The notes under the pieces are model-generated. The model was given only the letters and a program-made list of their open reading frames with translations. It did no database searches and was not told the DNA's origin. From Planctomycetota bacterium (GTDB taxonomy: Bacteria > Planctomycetota > UBA1135 > UBA2386): a stretch of DNA of 64,000 nt. Location of the stretch: positions 5,024,001 through 5,088,000 of the forward strand of contig OZ245006.1 in NCBI GenBank assembly GCA_965223545.1, read 5' to 3'. Position numbers and translations under genes: made by a program. Positions 39,543-64,000 of this stretch are shown in pieces (the first letter of the stretch is position 1; each line of letters begins with the position of its first letter).

Positions 39543-41432
39543 GCGGAGCGAAGGGTGAGCGCCCGTCAGCTCTTGATCCTGAGGAAGAGGGAGTCACCGT
39601 CTACCCACACGAATTCCTGAAGACCCCCTTGCACTCGCTGTCCTTTCGTCGACTGCCACCGCGCAATACCAACCCACGCAGGTCTACAACATGGAGACCG
39701 AGCCCATTCTCGGCTCGGGAACGCCGAGTACGACCAGCTTGGGGGCTGCGCTCGACGCGGACATCGTCCGAACAGGTCTCACGTCGCCCCGGTTTATCGG
39801 GTTGGCTGCCTTCGCTAGCGGGCTATTCCCATTCACCTGGGATGGGCCGACCACGGCGCCGAATTTTGGGTCAGCTCTGGCGGGGTCCGGGTCGGGCGCG
39901 GTGGGCGTCACCATTCTCCCTCGACAGACGAACGTCGCGCCCGGCTCGCGGCTGACTGGCTTCGCGTACTTGTTTCCCGGCGGCGTGCCCAGGCCAACGC
40001 TCTTCGACGTCTTTATCGGCAGTTCCAACGTGCCTCCGTCAACGGCCAACTCTCGGGGTGCGAACGTGCCGACAACCTCGCTGGATCTCACGGCGGAGTT
40101 GGTTTGGCTCCAAGGTGCCTCAGTCCCATATGTGATCTACTGGGGTGCGAGCCAGTCACCGAGCCAGTTGGTTGCGGCTACGATCGATATGGTGACTGGT
40201 TCCGTAGGCTCGGCGTTCCCGGTGGCCGAGCCGCCCTCAGGCATGGGCACCCACCTTTATCTTGATACTCTTGTCGATGAGGATGGGCGGGCGCGGGCCT
40301 TGATCACTTCCGAACTCAGGACCGGGGGAAGAGACATTCACTTCTGGCCGAACTTCAGCACTCCCGGTGCCTCAACTCAACCATCTGTCCAATTCTTGAC
40401 GGGCCTCTATTCATCGGTTGCCGCGGTCGATGGCACTGTATTGGTTCGCAATGACTCCCTGCCGAACCCTCTATGGGAGCGCTACGGGATGTTCATGCTA
40501 TCGGGCCCCGATGCCGATACCTCGGCGTTTGGCACGACGGTCAATCAGTTCGCCTGGATTCCGCCAGACTACTCTCCCCTTTCGCTGTCTTTGTTGCTCG
40601 ACCCGGTGCTGAACTCCACCGGGACTCCAATGTTCGTGCTCTATCCTAATCGTCAGCATGCTAAGGGAGTTTTTCATTTGACCCACCTGGCCTACCCGGT
40701 CCCAATGGCGAACATGGGGGGTGTCTATCGCGGGAGCTGGGTCGTCCCCGCCTTGGCGCAGGGTGTTTCAGGGTGGTACAGCCAGGCGATCGGCCTCGAC
40801 CCAGTTACGGCTTGGGCGCCCAACGTCGCGGATCTCTGAGTGTTGGCCGGCGGCGAAGGCCCATCGCCTACGACGGCCGGCGGGCGAGGCCGACCACGGC
40901 GCGCACGGTGATCCACAGGCCCGTGGTCCACCAGATTGCGTCGAGCGCGGTCGGCGCCGACGTGTCGACCGAGGCAAGCGTCCCGATGCCGATCGCGCTG
41001 GCGGCGAGCATCCCGTTGCGCATGTAGGCGTAGTGGCGGGAGCCCCAGTGGATGCCGTCGGTGACGAAGCTGACCGCGTTGAGTGGTTGGGCTACGGCCG
41101 CGATCCACCAGGCCGAGGCGAAGACGCCGTGCGCGGCCGCGGGGACGAGCTCGGCCGCGACCCAGTCGGTCGAGGCCCACATCGCGGCGGTGAGCATGGC
41201 TCCGGTGAGCACGCCCCACGCCAGCGAGGTGCGGGCAGCGCGGCGGGCGAGGTCGAGCCGAGCAGCTCCGGCGAAGGCGCCGACCAGCACCTGCGCCGCG
41301 GTGGCGAAGCCGTAACTGTTCCGGCACGCACGTTCTTCGCGCCGCGCCGAACCGGCGCATGAACAGAAACTTCGGCCACCGGGTGTCGGCACCGGCGCCG
41401 GCCACGACGGTGACCGTCCGTAGCTGGCTGGG

Positions 41433-43055
41433 CTACGAGCCCACGAACAACTGACGCACGATGTTGTCGATCGCGTTGTCGGCTTTGGCGATCTGGGCAC
41501 GCCGTTGCCGTCCCAGCATCCAGCCACGCGGAGTCAGCTGACCGACCTGGGAGGCAGGAGTGGTCGAGATCGCGTGAAGCACATCCCGCAGGTAGAGCAG
41601 CGGGCTGATGCCATGCTCTCGACACGACTGGACGAGACTCAAGAGGATGAGTGAAGCTTGGGTGCCGTCCTCGGATCCGAAGAAGAGCCAGTTCTTCTTG
41701 CCGATCACGACTGCACGCAGAGCACGCTCGCAACCGTTGTTCGAGATCTCGCGGATGCGGCCATCGGTCAGGAAGCGCTCGAGAGCAGGCCACTGGTTGA
41801 GCCCGTAGCGAACTCCCTCCATGAGCGGCCCCTTCGGGAGGCTCGGCTGGTCGATGTGCATCTGCTCGAGCCAAGCCTTGAGCGCGTTCGCAATCGGGCG
41901 AGAGTCGCGCTGACGGACCTCGACCAGCTCGTCATCCGTGAAGGGTCGACCATCTTTGCCCTTCTTGGCGACGCTCTCGATCGCGAACAGCTTGCCGATC
42001 CAGCCCAGAGCCTTCTCCGTGGTCGAGTCGCCGAGCTTCCGCGCATTCACGAAGTAGCGACGAAGGTGTGCCCAGCATCCGATGCGCGCGATGCTGGTTG
42101 GATCGAGATCGCTGTAGCAGTCATGGCCATCGCACTGCAACCGACCACCGCGGTCGCCCAAGACCTCTTTGGGGCTGCCGCGATTGCGTGAGTCCGTAGC
42201 GGTGTAGAAAACCCCGGCGTGTTGATCGCGCCACGCCCACACGTGGATCTTTTTCTGTCCGGGGTTTCGGCCGTTGCGCTGGTTGCCGTAGGTGTCGTCC
42301 ACCTGCAGGACGGAGGTGTCGAGGCTCTCGAGAACTTGCTCGACATGGGCATCGAACACGGGCTTCAGGAGCTCGGCACAGCGCATCGCCGAAGTGCATA
42401 GGACGCTACGCGACAGGCTGAGCCCCTCGGCTGCGTACTTCTTCTCCAACCGCGCGTACGGCATGTGGTTGGCAAAGCGGTCGAAGATGATCTGCGCAAG
42501 GAAGCCGGGGCCGAGGATGCTTTTGTCGAGGACTCGGGTGGGGCCCGCGGCGACGACGACGTAGCCCTGACAGGTCGCGCAGGAGTACTTCTTCCTCACG
42601 ATCTGGTGGACGAACGAGAGCTCGATGCGCTCGAGCTCCTGCGAGACCTCTTCGCCGAACTCCCGACGGCCGTTGCCGCAGCAAGGGCACAGCAGGTCCT
42701 CGCCCTCGATCGTGAATACGGAGCGTTGCCGCGGAAGATGCTCTGGGAAGTCCTTGCGTCGCTTGGTGCGCTTGCGCTTGTGCTCGGGGACGGTGATCTC
42801 TTCGGCCTCTTCTTCGGCCGCCTTGGCGTCGGCTCCCGCTTCCTCTACAGCCTCTTGCGCGAACGGCAGCAGCTGTCGCGGGTCGATGTAGCGGCTCTTC
42901 TCCGAGCGGCGACCGAACAGCATGCGCTGAAGGTCGGACATCTGCGACTTCAGCGACGAGATCTGCGTGAGCAGATCCGGGATCAAGGCACGTAGCTGCG
43001 CCTCATCCAGTGCGTCGACGTTGACCGTTTGCTTGCGACCGCCCATCGCGACCAT
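41433..43055 (-). CDS. tnpC: IS66 transposase TnpC
   Basis: LFGRRSEK, CPCCG, LQVDDT, LQCDG, GCWAHLRR, ISNNGCER, KKNWLF. Confidence 0.95.
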   Translation of the reverse strand: MVAMGGRKQTVNVDALDEAQLRALIPDLLTQISSLKSQMSDLQRMLFGRRSEKSRYIDPRQLLPFAQEAVEEAGADAKAAEEEAEEITVPEHKRKRTKRRKDFPEHLPRQRSVFTIEGEDLLCPCCGNGRREFGEEVSQELERIELSFVHQIVRKKYSCATCQGYVVVAAGPTRVLDKSILGPGFLAQIIFDRFANHMPYARLEKKYAAEGLSLSRSVLCTSAMRCAELLKPVFDAHVEQVLESLDTSVLQVDDTYGNQRNGRNPGQKKIHVWAWRDQHAGVFYTATDSRNRGSPKEVLGDRGGRLQCDGHDCYSDLDPTSIARIGCWAHLRRYFVNARKLGDSTTEKALGWIGKLFAIESVAKKGKDGRPFTDDELVEVRQRDSRPIANALKAWLEQMHIDQPSLPKGPLMEGVRYGLNQWPALERFLTDGRIREISNNGCERALRAVVIGKKNWLFFGSEDGTQASLILLSLVQSCREHGISPLLYLRDVLHAISTTPASQVGQLTPRGWMLGRQRRAQIAKADNAIDNIVRQLFVGS

Positions 43056-43416
43056 TGATACGAACAGAGCGCGAGTAATGCCGACGAAACTTGGCGGATT
43101 TCAGATCAATCCCTTCGAGCAACATCACGAGCTGTGCGCGCTCGACTTCGACATGTGTGGCGTCGCCGCTCTTGGGACGCCAACTGTCAAACGTGCCGCG
43201 CTCGAGTCGCTTCATCGAGATCCAGAAACCGTTGCGATCCCAGAACAAGATCTTCACGCGATCGCGACGCCGGTTGAAGAACGCGAAGACGTCGCCATCG
43301 AACGGATCCCGATGAAAGCTGTGCTGGACGATCGCGCTCAGCCCGTCGAACGACTTCCTCATGTCGGTTGGCTCGTTGGCGACGTACACGCGCACGCCCG
43401 CTGGGAAGGCCAGCAT
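43003..43416 (-). CDS. tnpB: IS66 accessory protein TnpB
   Basis: PTDMRKSFDGL, KILFWDRNGF, KRLERGTF. Confidence 0.95.
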   Translation of the reverse strand: MLAFPAGVRVYVANEPTDMRKSFDGLSAIVQHSFHRDPFDGDVFAFFNRRRDRVKILFWDRNGFWISMKRLERGTFDSWRPKSGDATHVEVERAQLVMLLEGIDLKSAKFRRHYSRSVRINGRDGRSQANGQRRRTG

Positions 43417-43745
43417 CAGTCGGCCACAGAGTCCAGCAAGCGGTACGCGATGTCTTGAGCAATCGCGCCCTCGAACTCCGCGACGACGCCCGCCGGGAAC
43501 CTGAGCCGCACAAGGCTCGAGCTCTCGCCCTCGTCGTTACTCGTCCGGCCCCGACCATCGCGATCGACGACTCGGACCTCCGCGAACCCAGTGCTCTCCT
43601 CCGATCGCAACCGATGCGACCACCAACTCAGCGTCCCGATCGGGATACCGAACCGCTCCGAGAGCGCACGCAGCGAAAACCCTTCCTGCTCGCGGAGCGC
43701 GAGAACCTGCCGGATCTCACGGCGACGACTTGCTCGCTTCGACAT
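43416..43745 (-). CDS. tnpA: IS66 accessory protein TnpA (HTH)
   Basis: SLRALSERFGIPIGTLSWW HTH, FAEVRV; lies upstream of tnpB. Confidence 0.85.
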   Translation of the reverse strand: MSKRASRRREIRQVLALREQEGFSLRALSERFGIPIGTLSWWSHRLRSEESTGFAEVRVVDRDGRGRTSNDEGESSSLVRLRFPAGVVAEFEGAIAQDIAYRLLDSVAD

Positions 43746-44676
43746 GGCCGCATCGTGGCGAACGACTCGAGCGTTTGCAGACGTGGTTGCCGGAACAGTT
43801 ACGCGAAGCCGTCGAGGGCCAGGGCGGTGAACATCCACACTTGGCGGATTGCGTGGTGGGCAGCGCCGGCGTCGTCGCCGGCCTGCTGGGCGGTGCGCGT
43901 GGTCGCCACCAAGAACACCATCAAGAGGCACGTGCGCAGGATCATGTCGCGGCCGACGACGAGCAGCTGTCCGGCGTCGGCGAGACCGAGGCGGTCCGGG
44001 CGGCCGAGTCGAGCGAAGATGGCGGACAGCGACCACGCGCACGCCAGCCACTGGCTGGCGACCGTTGCCCAGGCGGCGCCGGCGATGCCGAATGCGGGGA
44101 TCGGGCCGAGGCCGGGGATCAACAGCGCGTTGAGGCCGACGTTGACGAGGTTGCTGAGGATCGCGATCCGCAGTGGCGTGCGCACGTCGCGGCAGCCGCG
44201 CAGCGCGCCGCTGGCGGTGAGGGTCAGCAGGATCGCCGGGGCGCCGAGGGCGGTGATGCGCAGGTAGGTCGTGGCGGCGTCGAGGGTCGTGCCGCGTGCC
44301 TCCATCCAGTGCGCGATCGGCCGCGCGGCGAGCATGCCGCACAGGGCGAGCACGGCGCCGCCGATCGCGGCGAGCAGAAGGGCGGTGCCGGTGATCGAGC
44401 GCGCGCGCGCGGCGTCGCCCTCGCCGTCGGCGCGGGCCACTTCGGTCTGTGCGCCGGTGGCGGTGAACTGGAATACCCAGAGGACCGCGGGGAGCACGGT
44501 CGTGCCGACGCCGAGGGCGGCCACCGAGGCGACGCCGAGCGGGGCCACGAAAGCGGTGTCGACGAGGCCTTTGAGCGGCTCGGCGACCAGCGCGGCGGTC
44601 ACCGGCACGGCGAGCCCGATCGTCGTGCGGTGCGGCGCGCGCTCGAACGCGTCGGCGGTGTCGCGCTCGGTGCCGG

Positions 44677-57286: not shown

Positions 57287-59143
57287 ATGCGCGATTCCTC
57301 CCGCCGCCGCTACCTGCGTTTTCGTCGTGACTTCTTCGAGAAGCGGTTGGCGACCATGCTGCCGCAAGCGGAGTCGGCGCGCGGTGGGCTGCGCCGCTAC
57401 TTTCGCTGGTTGAAGGGGCACTGGGGGGCGATCAGCGGCAACGTCACTCTGGCGCTCGTCGTCGCCGGGCTCGAGTCGCTGCATCCGCTGTTCCTCAAAC
57501 ACATCGTCGACGGCGTGCTGCTGCCGGTCGAGATGACGACCGAGCAGCGCCTGCGTGCGCTGCACTGGGCCGGCGGGATCTTCTTGGCGGTGGTGGTCGT
57601 CGGCCAGCTGCTGCAGTTGATGCGGAACTACCACCAGCGCCAACTCAACGTTCGCCTGACCCTGTCGCTGCGGCGCCAATTGTACGAGCGCATCCTGCAC
57701 CTGCCGGTGCGCACGCTGCACGAGATGAAGACCGGGGGCGTGATCTCGCGGGTCACCAGCGACGTCGACACGACGACGGGACTGTTGCAGCTCGCCTTGA
57801 TCTCGCCGGGCGTGTCGGCGGTGCGGTTGTTGATCGCGTTCGGCATCCTGTTCGCGCTGAACTGGCGCTTGGCGCTGACCGCACTGGCGGTGTTGCCAGG
57901 GATCGCGTTGGTCAGCTTCTGGTCGGCGCGCCGGATCCGCCCGATCTACCGGGATCTGCGCAAGGACGCTGCCGCGGTCGACGCCAGAGTCAGTGAGGCG
58001 GCGGGGGGCATCCGCGTCGTGCGCGCGTTCCAACGCGAGCGACGCGAGCTGTTGGCGTTCTCGGTCGGGCGACACACGATGGTGCGCAAGCAGCTGTTCG
58101 CGCACCGCCGAGAGCTCGTGTTGTGGACCGCGTGGGGGCTGATGCTCGCGGCGGTCAACGTGATCATCGTTTGGTTCGGCGGCTATCTGCAGATCACCTC
58201 GACGGCGAGCGTCGGTGACATCATGGCGTTTCAGTGGTACACGTTCATGCTGCTGACACCGGTGTGGCAGATCGTCAACTCCTTCTCCGAGCTGCAGCGG
58301 TCACTGGCGGCGATGGAGCGCGTGTTCGAGATATTGGCGATGCCGCCCGAGATGCCGGATCAGCCCGCTGCGCGGCCGGCGCCGACTGTCGTCGAGGAGC
58401 TCCGTTTCGAAGGCGTGAGCTTCGGCTACGGCGATGGAGAGGCGGTGTTGCATGACATCGACGTCGCGGTGCCGGGTGGGTCCGTGGTTGCGCTGGTCGG
58501 GCGTAGCGGAGCGGGCAAGAGCACGATGGTCGACCTCGTGGCGCGGTTGCATGATCCGACCCGGGGCCGCGTCACGCTCAACGGCACCGACCTGCGCGAC
58601 TACACGCTGCGCTCATACCGCGAACGGCTCGGTGTCGTGCAGCAAGACGTGTTCTTGTTCGACGGCACGATCGCCGAGAACATCCGCTACGGGCGGCAGG
58701 GGGCAACCGACGCCGAGATCGAGGAGGCGGCGCGGCGCGCCAATGCGGACGAATTCGTCACCGCGTTGCCGGATGGCTATGACACCGTGGTCGGCGAGCG
58801 CGGCGTCAAGCTCTCCGGCGGGCAGTGCCAGCGGTTGTCGATCGCGCGCGCGATCTTGGCGGCTCCACAGATCCTGATCTTGGACGAGGCGACCAGCGCG
58901 TTGGATACCGAGAGCGAGCAGGCGATCCAAGGCGCGTTGCGCGCGGTGTTCCGCGGGCGGACGACGTTCGTCGTCGCGCATCGGCTGTCCACGATTACCA
59001 CTGCGGATCTGATCCTCGTGCTCGACGGCGGTCGGATCGTCGAGCGTGGCCGGCACGCCGACTTGATGGCGCGGCGCGGTGCGTACTACCAAATGGTGCA
59101 ACGCCAGCACCGCGCGACGCGCGGCGACCCGGCACACTCCTGA
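57287..59143 (+). CDS. ABC transporter ATP-binding/permease (MsbA-like exporter)
   Basis: 6-TM domain, GRSGAGKS, LSGGQ, ILDEATSALD, AHRLST. Confidence 0.95.
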   Translation: MRDSSRRRYLRFRRDFFEKRLATMLPQAESARGGLRRYFRWLKGHWGAISGNVTLALVVAGLESLHPLFLKHIVDGVLLPVEMTTEQRLRALHWAGGIFLAVVVVGQLLQLMRNYHQRQLNVRLTLSLRRQLYERILHLPVRTLHEMKTGGVISRVTSDVDTTTGLLQLALISPGVSAVRLLIAFGILFALNWRLALTALAVLPGIALVSFWSARRIRPIYRDLRKDAAAVDARVSEAAGGIRVVRAFQRERRELLAFSVGRHTMVRKQLFAHRRELVLWTAWGLMLAAVNVIIVWFGGYLQITSTASVGDIMAFQWYTFMLLTPVWQIVNSFSELQRSLAAMERVFEILAMPPEMPDQPAARPAPTVVEELRFEGVSFGYGDGEAVLHDIDVAVPGGSVVALVGRSGAGKSTMVDLVARLHDPTRGRVTLNGTDLRDYTLRSYRERLGVVQQDVFLFDGTIAENIRYGRQGATDAEIEEAARRANADEFVTALPDGYDTVVGERGVKLSGGQCQRLSIARAILAAPQILILDEATSALDTESEQAIQGALRAVFRGRTTFVVAHRLSTITTADLILVLDGGRIVERGRHADLMARRGAYYQMVQRQHRATRGDPAHS

Positions 59144-59174
59144 CCGGCGTGACGCGTCTTTCGTGCGCCCGCCG

Positions 59175-60533
59175 TCATTTGGCGTCGAGCAGCTTCTGCA
59201 GCTGGAACTCGATGTGTTGCAGCTGTGCTTCGATGCGATCCAGGCGGTCGCTGTCCGCCCCCGGTGTGACTGCCGGATCGGGCATCCGTGGCTCTGGTTG
59301 GGGTGGGCCGGAGGGCTGCACTTTGTTCAGGTCTTCGCGCACGACGAAACCCGGTGGTTGTGTTCTCCAGGCTTCCTGCCGTTGCATGAATCCCGCTCCG
59401 AGCAGGAACAGCCGATCCGTGTCCTCTGGCGTGAAATTGTCGACGGCGAGCTCGAGTCCGTCCGGCATGGTGACGAAGCGGAACTCGGCTCCCCACGCCC
59501 GCGACAGCAGGTAGAGATGGAGCACGTGCTCGGACACCATGGTGTAGCTCATCATGGTCACCGTGCGCAGCGCGATGCCGAGGGTGTCGCGTTGGACGTC
59601 GACCGGGCACGGACGCAGTGAGCCGTTGTGGATCACGTACATGGTCACGTCCACGTCGTCCCACGAGATACCGGCGCGCTCCGCGGACAGGTAGCCGTCG
59701 AACACGTTCTGCGGGACGAACAGCGGGCGCATCACCGCCCCATCGGCGTGCAGCTCGTCGCGATCGTCGTGCGTGAACCGGACCGGCGGATAGACCACTG
59801 GAATCGACGCCGAAGCGGTCAACACGCGCCGGAACAACTCCAAGGCTTCGTCCGTGCGCCGCACGGCGATCGCGCCCATGTCCCAGACGACGAAGTCGCC
59901 GACATCGAGGTTGGTCGATCCGACGAACAACCGGCGGCCTTGTTCGTGCTTGGTGGCGACGGCTTCGAGCAGGGACCGGTCGACCGCCTCGGCGATCGAA
60001 GCGCGTAGCGGTCGATTGTCGGCGAGCGACTCGTCCCACAGCACCGAGGCGAGCAGCCCCTTCTCGCGGTGCATGTCCTGCGGCTCGATGCGACGGAACA
60101 GCTGCTCGATGCGCGCATCGAAAGCGGGTCCAGCGAACGCGAACGGAGCCAGCAAGGCACCGACGCTGACGCCCGTGACGAGCCAGAAGTCGGGCCGGTC
60201 CCCCCGCCGCGACCACTCGGTGAGGATGCCGGCGCCGAAGGCGCCGTTGACCCCGCCAGAGCTCAGCACGAGCATGTCGTAGGCGCGCCGCCCGCGCAGA
60301 CCGGGATCCGTGCGCGCCAGCTCGGCAACGGCCGCGTCGAAGTTGGCCTGGATCGCGTCGCTGGGGTAGCCGTCGATGCCCCGGACATCTTCGAAGCCGG
60401 CGATCGGTGCGACGACGCCGTGCCGTTCCGACACGATCGCGGTGCGCAGCGGCCATCCACAGCCTGCCGCTACGACGAGTGGGGCACTCACCAACAAGGC
60501 GAAGCCAGGCGCGAAGCCGAGTTTGGACAGCAT
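59175..60533 (-). CDS. Patatin-like phospholipase (lipoprotein)
   Basis: SSGGVNGAFG, GVSVG (GxSxG), ASASIP, ADGA. Confidence 0.9.
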   Translation of the reverse strand: MLSKLGFAPGFALLVSAPLVVAAGCGWPLRTAIVSERHGVVAPIAGFEDVRGIDGYPSDAIQANFDAAVAELARTDPGLRGRRAYDMLVLSSGGVNGAFGAGILTEWSRRGDRPDFWLVTGVSVGALLAPFAFAGPAFDARIEQLFRRIEPQDMHREKGLLASVLWDESLADNRPLRASIAEAVDRSLLEAVATKHEQGRRLFVGSTNLDVGDFVVWDMGAIAVRRTDEALELFRRVLTASASIPVVYPPVRFTHDDRDELHADGAVMRPLFVPQNVFDGYLSAERAGISWDDVDVTMYVIHNGSLRPCPVDVQRDTLGIALRTVTMMSYTMVSEHVLHLYLLSRAWGAEFRFVTMPDGLELAVDNFTPEDTDRLFLLGAGFMQRQEAWRTQPPGFVVREDLNKVQPSGPPQPEPRMPDPAVTPGADSDRLDRIEAQLQHIEFQLQKLLDAK

Positions 60534-60644
60534 GCGCGCAGCTTAGCCAGCCACGTGGCGTCCCGGCAATTCACTCCGCGAACGGGCGCGACTGGGCCGC
60601 GCAAAACGCGTAACTTGCCCCGGTCCTTCGCCGATGGAGTCCAC

Positions 60645-61253
60645 ATGGCCTCGCTGACCAAGTACTTCCTGCGTGGCACGCTGGTGCTGATCCCACTCCT
60701 GGTGACCGGCTACGTGATCTGGTTGGTCGCGACCACGATGGGCCCACTGGTCAAGTGGGTGGGTGATGCGGTCGGTGGCCCGGCAGTCAGCGACGTGATG
60801 CAGTACGTGCTCGGCACACTCGTCACGTTGGCTGGAGTCACCCTGCTGGGACGGTTCGCCTCGAACTACCTCGGCGCCAAGCTGATCACCTGGCTCGAGC
60901 AGCTGGTCGAGAAGGTGCCACTGGTCAAGCTGCTGCACGGCTCGGTGCGGGATCTGCTCGGCGCGTTCGTCGGCGACGAGAAGAGCTTCGACCGGCCGGT
61001 GATGGTGCGCCTCGACGGCGGCGCGGCGGTCGTGGGGTTCGTCACCCGCGACGACCTGAGTTTCCTCGGCGCGACCGATCACGTCGCCGTGTACCTGCCG
61101 CAGTCCTACAACTTCGCCGGCAATCTCATCGTCGTGCCCGGCGATCGCGTGCAGAGCCTCGACGCGCCGAGCTCGGCCGTCATGGCGTTTCTGGTGTCAG
61201 GCGGCGTCTCTGCCAAGAAGGAGGACGCCGCCGGCAAGGCGACGGCCTCTTGA
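60645..61253 (+). CDS. DUF502 domain membrane protein
   Basis: FLRG...P, KVPLVK, GFVT, AVYLP, FLVSGG. Confidence 0.88.
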   Translation: MASLTKYFLRGTLVLIPLLVTGYVIWLVATTMGPLVKWVGDAVGGPAVSDVMQYVLGTLVTLAGVTLLGRFASNYLGAKLITWLEQLVEKVPLVKLLHGSVRDLLGAFVGDEKSFDRPVMVRLDGGAAVVGFVTRDDLSFLGATDHVAVYLPQSYNFAGNLIVVPGDRVQSLDAPSSAVMAFLVSGGVSAKKEDAAGKATAS

Positions 61254-61759
61254 GCGTCCGGCGCCTCGAATCGTCGAGCTGCGACAACATTTTCGAGGCG
61301 ACGTCGCTGCCATGGCGACAATGCCGCCGCGCCGGAGGCTCGGAGAGACAGTGCCTCCTGGCTCAGCGCGGCGGCGGATGGGTCGGACCTTCCAAAGCGC
61401 TCCGGCAAGAGCGGCATCCGAGTTTGGTTGCGGCCGTGGCCGCGCTGAGCCTCCGGCGCCTCGAATCTTCGAGCTTCGACAACATTCTCGAGGCGACGTC
61501 GCTGCCATGGCGACAACGCCGCCGCGCCGGAGGCTCGGAGAGACAGTGCCTCCTGGCTCAGCGCGGCGGCGGATGGGTCAGGCCTTCAAAGCCGCTCCGG
61601 AAAAAGCGGCATCCGAGTTTGGTTGCGGCCGTGGCCGCGCTGAGCCTCAGGGTCCGCAAATCTTCGCGCGGCGACAACCTTTCGGAAGGCTCGATGCCGC
61701 TGGAACTTCGACCACGCAGCTCCCGGAGGCTTCCATGAGAGGGGCGATCCCGTCAACAG

Positions 61760-62052
61760 CTCTTTGTCTGTGGATCTGTTCTTCTTGAGAATCTGGGCGC
61801 CTTGGCGCCGCCCTGCGCGACAAGCTTCGGACTCCGCAGGCTTCCATACGCACTCTGATGGCCTCGTCCGAGACCGGTGCACGATGAGATCCGTCCGACC
61901 CGGCGCAGCTTTCTCGATAACGGCCTCGAGGGCCAAGCCTCCGGTCGCTGTCGCCGGGATCGGGCGGTGAGTCTTCAGCAGTGCAGGAGCGGCATCACGC
62001 CAGGTTCCTCCACGGTATTCGGTTGGTTGGGGGTGGGGCGATCATGGTTGGG
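61760..62052 (-). ncRNA. Putative bridge/seek RNA of the IS1111 element
   Basis: An internal loop presents CCGGAGGCU and UCGAG, matching both strands of the insertion site. Boundaries approximate. Confidence 0.75.
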
Positions 62053-63129
62053 TCATACCGCGGTGTGGGCAGCTACGCGGTCGCTGTTGTGGAGTGGGTC
62101 GTAGACCAAGCCATGACGCCACAGCCGATGCAGCAGTAGCGCGAGCTTGCGGGCAACCGCGACCGCCGCGCGTTTCCTCGCGCCGCGGCCGCCGCGGGCG
62201 ATCAGGCGTTGCCCGAAGCGCCGGAGGTCACAGTCCTTGCCGAACGGGCCGAGGATGTAGTGCGCACACTGCACCAGAAGCCGTCTCAGATAGCCGTCGC
62301 CAGCCTTGCTGATCGACAGCTCCGGATTGCTGTCGCCCGACGCGAAGCTCTTTGGGCACAAGCCGAGCCAGGAGCCCACGCGGCGGCTTTCGGCGAATCG
62401 TGTCGGATCCTCGATCGTCAGCACGAACGCGGTCGCTGTGACCGGCCCCACGCCGTTGACTTGCTGCACGACGGCGACCTCGGGGTATCGCTCGCGGCTC
62501 GCCTCGACGAGCGCCTTGTCGAGCTCGTCGATCCGGCGGGACAGGTCGGCGATCAAGTCCAGCAGCGGCTCCGCCGCAGTGAGTAGCAGGACCGGCATGG
62601 ACTCGCGAGCTCGCTTCGGGAACGCCGCGGTCGATGCCGACGGCAGCCGGACGCCGAAGCCCTTCGCCAGGCTCCGGACCTGCTGCACTGCCATCGTCCG
62701 CATCCTCACCAGCAGGTCGCGCGCACGAATGACCGACAGGTCGGCCTGTGCCTGCTCGCTGCGGTGGTGGATCGTGCCGAGCAACTCGGGCATCCCTGCC
62801 TCCAGGCGAGCCAGGGTCTCGGCATCGCGCCGGTCGGTCTTGCGAGGATCCTTGGCGATCAGCTGCACTCGGCGCGGGTCCACGACGTGAACGTCGTAGC
62901 CCTCCGAGCGCAACCGCCGAGACATCCAGGCCGACTGCGAGCCGGCCTCGAGAGCGACTCTGGCGCCCGGGAAGTCGCTCAGCGCCTTCGAGAGCGCTGT
63001 CGGCGTCGTCGGGAAACTGCCCCGCGCAACGACCGTCCGCGACGCGTCCAGTGCGCAGTAGTGGATGTTCCGATCGCCAATGTCGAGACCGATGGTCACG
63101 GGGGAGGTCTGAGCGGTAACTTTGGTCAT
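62053..63129 (-). CDS. IS110 family transposase/recombinase
   Basis: GLDIG, ALEAG, KTDRRDA (DEDD); VNGVGP, GLCPKSFASG, ISKAG, VAVARKL. Confidence 0.96.
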   Translation of the reverse strand: MTKVTAQTSPVTIGLDIGDRNIHYCALDASRTVVARGSFPTTPTALSKALSDFPGARVALEAGSQSAWMSRRLRSEGYDVHVVDPRRVQLIAKDPRKTDRRDAETLARLEAGMPELLGTIHHRSEQAQADLSVIRARDLLVRMRTMAVQQVRSLAKGFGVRLPSASTAAFPKRARESMPVLLLTAAEPLLDLIADLSRRIDELDKALVEASRERYPEVAVVQQVNGVGPVTATAFVLTIEDPTRFAESRRVGSWLGLCPKSFASGDSNPELSISKAGDGYLRRLLVQCAHYILGPFGKDCDLRRFGQRLIARGGRGARKRAAVAVARKLALLLHRLWRHGLVYDPLHNSDRVAAHTAV

Positions 63130-63267
63130 GGGTCGATCTGCTCCTTTGATTTTGCAGCGCCATTGTGTGGCGACTGCGTCGGAGGGATCGACCCTCTCAT
63201 CCCATCTCGAAGACAACACTGGCCTCTGGGGTTTGGTTGCGGCCGTGGCCGCGCTGAGCCCTCCGCC

Positions 63268-64000
63268 TCAGCAGCCAATCGTGAAGTCCAGCGCGTTGCA
63301 GAGCCCGAGCAACGACATTTCGTTGCCGACGACGGCCTGCACGGTGCCGCCCAACCCGAACAGGCCGGTGCTGGCTGGCACGGGGACTCCGATCTGCACC
63401 GGATTGCCGCCGGCCGGAGCCGAAATCGAGAACAACAGCGGGGTGAACGGGTCGATCAGCACTTCGCCGAACGAGACGACCGGGCCGTTGCCGGCGCCAG
63501 TCGTCGCCACCACTGCGGCGAACTGGGCGCGACCAAGACCGGTCGTGTCGATCTGCAGCGGCCAGTCCTGGCCGATCGAGGGCGTCGCGGTGCTGCTGAG
63601 GCAGGTCATGTTCACGCCACTGCCATTGCGCGGCGTCGCCGTGGCCAGCACGAAGCCCGGGGCGCGGGCCAGCTTGATCTCCACTTGCGCGCCGCTCGCG
63701 GTGACGTTGACGCGCACGTCCTGCGTGATGTAGCAGGGGTGGGAGACGCGCAGCGTGTGCGTGCCGGTCGGCAAGAACGCGTGGTAGCGGCCGAAGCGGG
63801 GCTCACTGCGGTTCTGCTCGCCCAGGGTGAACGGGTTCTCGACGTAGCGGATGTCGGCCTGGATCGGCGCGCCCGACGTTGCGTCGGTGACGTGTCCCGA
63901 GACCGGGATCGGCCGCTGAATGAACCAGACCGTGCCCGGCCAGAGCCGCGTCGCCTCGCTCTGCGCGCTGCTGATCGACGGCGACTGCGTCGTGCTGATC
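63268..64000 (-). CDS. C-terminal part of a secreted protein with a carboxypeptidase regulatory-like domain (probably M14 peptidase)
   Basis: VSGHVTDATSGAPI...GRYHAFLPTGTHTLRVSHPCY; the frame is open to the window edge. Confidence 0.7.
   Translation of the reverse strand, partial: ISTTQSPSISSAQSEATRLWPGTVWFIQRPIPVSGHVTDATSGAPIQADIRYVENPFTLGEQNRSEPRFGRYHAFLPTGTHTLRVSHPCYITQDVRVNVTASGAQVEIKLARAPGFVLATATPRNGSGVNMTCLSSTATPSIGQDWPLQIDTTGLGRAQFAAVVATTGAGNGPVVSFGEVLIDPFTPLLFSISAPAGGNPVQIGVPVPASTGLFGLGGTVQAVVGNEMSLLGLCNALDFTIGC

What the first reader, a model, noticed from the sequence alone, without database searches (positions are those of the whole stretch)
61732..63207. IS1111 element with a readable RNA guide that matches its own insertion site on both strands
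Seen: junctions are ccggaggCT|tccatgaga and tctcatcccatCT|cgaag, so the empty target is CCGGAGG-CT-CGA. On the transposase strand, the downstream non-coding region reads ccgatcccggcgacagc-ga-CCGGAGGCU-u-ggcc-cucga-ggcc-guua-UCGAG-aaa-gcugcgccgggucgg. This is a long stem enclosing an internal loop. One side (61936-61944) is identical to the 9-nt left target plus core; the other (61913-61917) is complementary to core plus right target. A second stem (ucggac/guccga) encloses CCAUC (61857-61861) and AUGGAAG (61841-61847), matching the predicted circle junction cccatCTtccat. Known: IS110/IS1111 recombinases use bridge/seek RNAs with target- and donor-binding loops. Inference: a complete, probably uncharacterised RNA-guided recombinase whose specificity can be decoded.
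Basis: partly seen in the sequence, partly recalled or inferred. Interest (0 to 1): 0.85.

Follow-up and report, generated by a model that had tools for sequence, protein, structure and literature searches.

The report
IS1111-type element with bridge RNA
This is an intact jumping gene of a known RNA-guided kind whose guide RNA, readable from the DNA, spells out its landing site in a host repeat and its own ends; it is a well-supported new example rather than a new system, and one of the four guide segments lies elsewhere than first proposed.

Summary
Confirmed, with one correction. 61732-63207 (-) is a 1476-bp IS1111-group element: DEDD/Ser recombinase (NF033542), 17-bp subterminal repeats 7 and 3 bp from the ends, CT core. 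The genome holds four copies, all at the same site and orientation in a ~200-bp host repeat with 61 empty sites. Among 66 distinct homologous guide pairs the target guides follow each element's own flanks: 5.85/7 and 3.43/4 matches against 3.70 and 1.38 when permuted, 0 of 5000. The right donor guide tracks the element's right end in 79 of 79, over at least 6 separate changes. No RNA or circle was observed. Mechanism: an IS621-like two-loop bridge RNA in the reversed IS1111 orientation. New member of a known kind; its modest added value is comparative evidence that an IS1111 clade reads its donor by RNA.

The parts
61732..63207 (-). IS1111-group insertion sequence, 1476 bp counting one copy of the 2-bp core
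   Evidence: Three identical full-length copies plus one interrupted copy in the genome
62053..63129 (-). RNA-guided recombinase, 358 aa; D16, E61, D99, D102 and S264 in GLCPKSFASG
   Evidence: NF033542 230 bits over cut-off 140; PF01548 and PF02371; these residues invariant in 14 aligned homologs
63184..63200 (.). Left subterminal inverted repeat, 17 bp, 7 bp from the left end
   Evidence: Pair I8, 94% complementary
61735..61751 (.). Right subterminal inverted repeat, 3 bp from the right end
   Evidence: Pair I8
61723..61731 (+). Left target CCGGAGG plus CT core (junction at the element's right end)
   Evidence: Same flank in all four copies; 61 empty sites
63206..63212 (+). CT core plus right target CGAAG (junction at the element's left end)
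61901..61956 (-). Target-binding loop: outer stem 61947-56 with 61901-09, inner hairpin 61921-35
   Evidence: Outer stem 95% of cells paired, inner 88-92%, compensatory changes in 30 homologous RNAs; this element alone has A-U where 29 have U-A
61936..61944 (-). Left target guide CCGGAGGCU
   Evidence: Covaries with each element's own flank
61913..61919 (-). Right target guide plus core, UAUCG-AG (three matches, one mismatch, one wobble outside the core)
   Evidence: Positions 1-5 match own flank in 72-98% of 65 homologs against 26-35% permuted; position 6 does not
61911..61912 (-). Target-loop handshake dinucleotide AA (family mostly AU or GU)
   Evidence: AT 59 and GT 22 of 97; role inferred from IS621 (PMC11208158, passages)
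61883..61890 (-).
   Evidence: Fixed register 3.68/5 against 3.39 +- 0.04 permuted, 0 of 5000, n=74; five neighbouring registers not significant at that level
61849..61881 (-). Inner stem of the donor loop (UGCAC with GUGCG) carrying a variable hairpin 61861-74
   Evidence: 96.7% paired but nearly invariant
61841..61847 (-). Right donor guide plus core, AUGGA-AG
   Evidence: Variable base agrees with the element's right end in 79 of 79; 8 changes on the tree, at least 6 forced
61839..61840 (-). Donor-loop handshake dinucleotide CC, complementary to target positions 6-7 (GG)
   Evidence: First base follows target position 7: 0.55 against 0.30 (n=76); 0.53 against 0.35, 11 of 5000 (n=34 clusters); second base not significant
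61751..61756 (-). -35-like TTGACG, half of the promoter expected at the circle junction
   Evidence: TTGAC 25-26 nt before the right end in 67 of 80 homologs; the junction -10 would be GAAGAT, 3 of 6
61641..61729 (.). Right part of the host repeat unit (type B) into which the element inserted; the left part is 63208-63260
61251..61640 (.). Two tandem 195-bp units of the sister host repeat (type A), uninterrupted
   Evidence: Family D1, 94% identical; 59 type-A 12-mers in the genome

Best explanation
A mobile IS1111-group element that moves by bridge-RNA-guided recombination. Inferred steps, by analogy with IS621 and ISEc11: the element excises as a circle; the joined ends complete a promoter that transcribes recombinase and 3' non-coding region; a ~140-nt two-loop RNA loads on the recombinase. 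Shown by covariation: the first loop reads the target (CCGGAGGCU on one strand, UAUCG-AG on the other) and the second loop reads the joined ends (AUCUCAUC and AUGGA-AG). Inferred: strands are cut at the shared CT core through D16/E61/D99/D102 and S264, and handshake bases next to the right guides favour insertion. Shown: the programmed target is one site of an intergenic ~200-bp host repeat, a harmless multi-copy landing pad. The geometry is that of IS621 turned round: the guide-defined top strand is the strand opposite the recombinase gene.
For: Four of four copies at one site and orientation, three identical. Target-guide covariation in 66 distinct guide pairs, 0 of 5000 permutations, holding in 36 clusters under 70% protein identity (6.01 against 3.64; 3.58 against 1.45; 0 of 3000); 64 different 11-nt targets among 65. 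Right donor guide 79 of 79 concordant, at least 6 separate changes. Left donor guide follows rare donor variants (L150, L007, L143). Stems covary: 15 of 24 pairs with changes on both sides, 0 of 500 shuffles, slid controls 29-49% paired against 88.7%. Loop order and guide lengths match IS621 (PMC11208160, PMC11208158, passages).
Against: No RNA or circle was observed: the lay on four runs listed no end-to-end joint (contigs drop rare forms). The naked-RNA minimum-energy fold pairs the guides internally, although the centroid leaves the target loop open. Left donor guide is loose: 7 of 74 have C against a donor T at position 4, and position 7 matches in only 20 of 74. 20 of 66 homologs score under 5.5/7 at the left target guide. 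The junction -10 is weak (3 of 6). For ISEc11 a short target-matching seekRNA sufficed for movement (PMC11187229, parts 1-3). The structure counted was derived from these same sequences, and the tree is the quick one.
Confidence: 0.85

Rival explanations
1. SeekRNA-only model: the RNA reads only the target; the ends are recognised by the protein through the long subterminal repeats, and the second loop is a dispensable precursor part.
For: An 82-nt ISEc11 seekRNA supported movement better than the 154-nt form (PMC11187229, part 3); 17-bp repeats are conserved here; left donor matches are imperfect.
Against: The right donor guide changes together with the element end in 79 of 79, at least 6 times independently; the base after it follows the target; the donor stem is nearly invariant. 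A dispensable part would not be expected to track the ends.
Confidence: 0.1
2. Site choice comes from the repeat's DNA structure or a protein preference, and the RNA matches are relics or chance.
For: The target lies in a palindromic repeat; the genome is 70% G+C, so short matches are cheap (CCAUC in 913 of 2000 shuffles).
Against: 64 different targets among 65 homologs are each matched by their own guides; none of 4 copies is in the 59 type-A sites that share the left target (about 0.07 by chance, so only suggestive).
Confidence: 0.03
3. The guides are right but this element is no longer active (non-consensus handshake AA, mismatch at right-target position 4).
For: Handshake AA in only 3 of 97; one mismatch in the right target guide; one copy is interrupted by an IS66-family element; 61 sites remain empty.
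Against: Three full copies are identical over 1476 bp with an intact frame and catalytic residues, which points to recent spread.
Confidence: 0.1

Closest known systems
IS1111-family seekRNA elements ISEc11, ISPa11, ISKpn4, ISPst6 (Siddiquee et al. 2024, PMC11187229)
   Same: DEDD recombinase with GL-P----SG motif, subterminal repeats with 7-bp and 3-bp extensions, non-coding region behind the gene, two target matches with the top-strand complement first; ISPa11 also targets a host REP.
   Different: Here a second loop covaries with the element's own ends, which that paper does not describe in the parts read; longer repeats (17 bp); different target. Sequence identity to those elements was not tested (ISfinder not available).
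IS621 and ISCro4 bridge recombinases (Durrant et al. 2024, PMC11208160; Hiraizumi et al. 2024, PMC11208158; 2026, PMC13626964)
   Same: CT core; 9-nt left target guide, short right target guide, left and right donor guides in the same order; handshake bases following donor and target position 7; IS621 targets REP sequences.
   Different: RNA lies in the right end; target and donor are read in the reverse orientation; long subterminal repeats; only distant sequence similarity (E about 1e-8, C-terminal part).
Predicted IS1111 bridge RNAs (ISCARN28, ISAzs32, ISPa11 among the six in PMC11208160 Fig. 6d / Ext. Data Fig. 10c)
   Same: Right-end RNA with predicted target- and donor-binding nucleotides.
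   Different: Those were assigned by manual inspection (passages seen; figures not held); here the donor guides are supported by covariation in a clade of 97 distinct RNAs.
ISPpu9 and ISPpu10 of Pseudomonas putida (PMC12288879)
   Same: Insertion at an AG/CT core in REP or BIME repeats; two related-family elements in one genome; partial modules and tandem duplications joined at the core.
   Different: ISPpu9 is IS110 group without subterminal repeats, and its partial modules are bounded by copies of the end boxes.

Membership tests
IS110/IS1111 recombinases | DEDD RuvC domain plus C-terminal domain with catalytic Ser-Gly | tested here: met
   NF033542 over cut-off, PF01548, PF02371; D16, E61, D99, D102, S264-G265
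IS1111 group | Subterminal inverted repeats with 7-bp left and 3-bp right extensions | tested here: met
   17-bp pair at 63184-63200 and 61735-61751; same layout found by pattern at 116 left and 117 right ends of 161 loci
IS1111 group | Long non-coding region downstream of the gene | tested here: met
   321 bp downstream against 78 bp upstream
IS1111 group | Site- and orientation-specific insertion without net target duplication | tested here: met
   4 of 4 copies; the empty site carries one core
IS1111 group | [quoted passage not shown] | tested here: met
   On the gene strand the 5' guide is complementary to AGCCTCCGG and the 3' guide is identical to TCGAG
IS1111 group | Recombinase falls inside the IS1111 clade of curated elements | not tested
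   No curated ISfinder set was available; best plasmid hits were 31-34% identical and annotated only 'IS110 family'
IS1111 group | Circular intermediate with junction promoter | tested here: inconclusive
   -35 conserved in 67 of 80; -10 only 3 of 6; no circle joint listed in four runs
Bridge RNA | Target-binding loop covarying with both target strands | tested here: met
Bridge RNA | Donor-binding loop covarying with both donor halves | tested here: met
   Right guide 79 of 79, at least 6 changes; left guide 0 of 5000 permutations but loose
Bridge RNA | RNA is expressed, binds the recombinase and is required and reprogrammable | not testable with these tools
   Needs RNA sequencing and assays

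The most novel reading that the evidence does not exclude
This clade of repeat-bearing IS1111 elements uses a fully bispecific IS621-type bridge RNA, donor guides and handshake bases included, and its recombinase sometimes joins the element's right end to an AG core inside its own non-coding region, in one copy exactly at the DNA that encodes the right target guide. That would be self-targeting that duplicates or mobilises parts of the guide gene, a possible route to new guides. Seen as end-to-internal-AG duplications in 3 of 112 right ends examined (L060, L024, L033). The donor-reading part alone I put at about 0.85.
Probability: 0.3. Interest if true: 0.55.

Novelty: new member of a known kind. 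Interest (0 to 1): 0.3.

Why it matters
The system kind has been published since 2024, so the element itself is ordinary. Two things give it modest value. First, whether IS1111 RNAs read the donor (bridge model) or only the target (seekRNA model) is unsettled in the papers read; this clade gives comparative support for donor reading and names exact bases to test. Second, 64 naturally different targets on one compact ~140-nt scaffold with a CT core make it a ready candidate for reprogramming. Two different RNA-guided elements sharing one host repeat at separate sites is a neat natural experiment.

Tried and rejected
(1) The 14-nt match of AUGGAAGCCUGCGG to the right junction (family D11) as an 'excision guide' or anti-guide: rejected; CCUGCGG is scaffold shared by relatives with other targets, and positions 3-7 show no covariation. 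(2) The inner loop CUCGA as an evolved decoy for UCGAG: rejected; the same loop is in 9 of 25 short RNAs with other guides. (3) CCAUC as left donor guide: rejected (the first comparison was one base out of register and was redone). (4) Rfam, 58000-64000: no match at E up to 1. (5) Free copies of the RNA gene: 5 matches, all in the four copies or the duplication. (6) A REP-associated Y1 transposase beside the repeat: 14 Y1 matches, nearest repeat motif at least 15.5 kb away, so the label REP/BIME stays a likeness. (7) Expression: no RNA holder listed; the one RNA run laid gave no reads and is no test. (8) Sigma-70 promoter and terminator scan of the linear element: none. (9) End and RNA motifs in the supplements of PMC11208160: 0 hits for four 13-nt motifs, but file 2 was not searchable and files 3 and 4 were cut. 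(10) No earlier finding of this scan by place or sequence.

Full report
Observation. The element runs 61732-63207 on the minus strand (1476 bp with one copy of the core). It encodes a 358-aa protein (62053-63129) that scores 230 bits on NF033542, cut-off 140, with PF01548 and PF02371; D16, E61, D99, D102 and S264-G265 are invariant in 14 aligned relatives. A 17-bp inverted repeat lies 7 bp from the left and 3 bp from the right end, the layout given for IS1111 elements in PMC11187229 (parts 1-3 of 9 read; passages).

Copies and target. The genome (8.1 Mb, 70% G+C) holds four copies. Three are identical over 1476 bp; the fourth is interrupted by an IS66-family element. All four have the same flanks and orientation. 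The target is one site in a ~200-bp palindrome-rich host repeat: 61 exact empty 12-mers against about 5.4 expected, with repeat motifs in 107 clusters. A sister repeat type shares the left target but differs at right-target position 3 (59 sites); none of the 4 copies lies in it, which is only suggestive (about 0.07). A contig of another study skips exactly the 1476 bases; it may be any empty repeat copy.

Chance. In 20000 dinucleotide shuffles of the non-coding region the 9-mer appeared 69 times, the 9-mer with the 5-mer within 40 nt 6 times, AUGGAAG 588 times; CCAUC appeared in 913 of 2000.

Homologs. I gathered 161 loci (37-70% protein identity apart from own copies; the closest named ones are Planctomycetota MAGs). 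Ends and RNA were located by fixed patterns: 116 left ends, 117 right ends, 147 target-loop motifs, 136 donor-loop motifs of 161; loci without a pattern match, many at contig ends, were left out. 79 of 161 had both flanks and the target loop and collapsed to 66 distinct guide pairs. The left target guide matched its own flank at 5.85 of 7 (best of five offsets, wobble counted half) against 3.70 +- 0.11 with flanks permuted under the same procedure; the right guide 3.43 of 4 against 1.38 +- 0.12; 0 of 5000 permutations reached either. 46 of 66 scored at least 5.5/7 and 59 of 66 at least 3/4, so some pairs fit poorly. After dropping three loci whose right flank is internal sequence and keeping one element per 70% identity cluster (36), the result stands (6.01 against 3.64; 3.58 against 1.45; 0 of 3000). 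Right-target positions 1-5 are read, position 6 is not.

Donor guides. 122 loci held the whole RNA, 97 distinct. In the 79 with a called right end, the variable base of the right donor guide agreed with the end every time (70 G/G, 9 A/A). On a quick protein tree of 78 of these (one dropped for stops or length) the A state needs 8 changes, at least 6 forced by well-supported branches, so it is not one inherited event. The slot at 61883-61890 scores 4/5 or better in 54 of 73 and beats permutation (3.68 against 3.39 +- 0.04, 0 of 5000, n=74), following rare donor variants in L150, L007 and L143. It is loose: 7 of 74 carry C against donor T at position 4, position 7 matches in 20 of 74, and a few rows were mis-anchored by the pattern. 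The base after the right donor guide follows target position 7 (0.55 against 0.30, n=76; 0.53 against 0.35, 11 of 5000, n=34); the second base is weak or not significant. The two bases after the right target guide are AU or GU in 81 of 97, fitting the near-invariant donor AT; this element has AA. This is the handshake pattern described for IS621 (PMC11208158 and PMC13626964, passages; part 1 of the latter).

Structure. On 30 short-scaffold RNAs, RNAalifold gave the target-loop stems and the inner donor stem. My 24-pair structure had 88.7% of cells paired and 15 pairs with changes on both sides; 0 of 500 shuffles reached that and slid controls gave 29-49% (the structure came from these sequences, which favours it). 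This element alone carries A-U where 29 others have U-A. The outer donor stem is weakly supported (57%). Alone, the RNA's minimum-energy fold pairs the guides internally, so the open loops are inferred to need the protein; the 321-nt region does not fold better than shuffles (z -0.53).

Mechanism. Shown: site specificity, guide-target and guide-donor covariation, conserved stems, intact catalytic residues. Inferred from IS621 and ISEc11: circle formation, junction promoter (-35 conserved in 67 of 80; -10 only 3 of 6), RNA loading, serine-linked strand exchange at the core. Not observed: RNA or circle.

Oddity. In the fourth copy the right end and core are followed by the last 181 bases of the element again, starting exactly after the AG of the right target guide's DNA. 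L024 and L033 show similar end-to-internal-AG duplications (3 of 112 right ends), both at contig ends. A junction at the core suggests the recombinase acting on its own RNA gene. Against it: contigs of two runs cross this region unbroken with no such joint listed, so an assembly artefact or a rare lineage is not excluded. ISPpu9 forms partial modules joined at its core (PMC12288879, passages).

Comparison and novelty. It meets every IS1111 and bridge-RNA feature that could be tested here; placement among curated ISfinder members was not tested. Durrant et al. predicted bridge RNAs in 93% of IS1111 elements and assigned donor nucleotides by inspection (PMC11208160, passages); Siddiquee et al. 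showed a short target-matching RNA suffices for ISEc11; a 2026 review still draws the seekRNA scheme with the transposase recognising the ends (PMC13604230, passages). Four searches (listings) showed no paper on this clade or on IS1111 donor-guide covariation; subscription papers are mostly missing, and supplements were only partly searchable. The only solved relatives found are IS621 and ISCro4. Earlier AI notes of this scan describe many such elements in other genomes, unchecked. Verdict: real, correctly identified, one guide misplaced; new member of a known kind; interest 0.3.

Noticed in passing
G000:C1:6847541-6849480 (L175) and 10 further copies: A second, IS110-group RNA-guided element (NF033542, 500-aa frame, long 5' non-coding region), 11 copies, all inserted at GCCGCAAC|CAAA of the same host repeat family; its 5' region holds GCCGCAA and, 32 nt on, TTTGGTT, a candidate target-loop pair. 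One copy sits about 110 bp from a copy of the element studied.
   Followed up: partly
G000:C1:7063619-7063802 (L060, L176): Fourth copy: right end joined at the core to the DNA of its own right target guide, duplicating the last 181 bases; not seen as a joint in the laid runs.
   Followed up: partly
L024 and L033, right ends: Right end followed by internal non-coding sequence that starts after an AG (whole RNA region in L024; 46-bp tandem unit in L033); both at contig ends.
   Followed up: partly
G000:C1:7065013-7067500 (L176); also window 41309-43803: IS66-family element of about 2.5 kb, seven full-length copies plus one split copy in the genome; one interrupts the fourth IS copy and one lies in this window.
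   Followed up: partly
window 61251-61729 and 63208-63260: Host repeat of ~200-bp palindrome-rich units in two types, often tandem, 107 clusters in the genome; no Y1 transposase match within 15 kb of a repeat motif; origin unexplained. The unit around this IS copy lacks its middle part on the left flank.
   Followed up: partly
window 59175-60533 (-), 60543-61253 (+), 63268-63999 (-): Neighbours: patatin-like phospholipase (PF01734; CBASS lipase model far below cut-off), DUF502 protein, and the end of a protein with a carboxypeptidase regulatory-like domain; the IS lies between convergent genes.
   Followed up: no
G000:C1, 14 places such as 1355010 and 1632801: A multi-copy family of weak Y1_Tnp (PF01797) matches, 12 of them over the same profile part, possibly an IS200/IS605-like element.
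   Followed up: no
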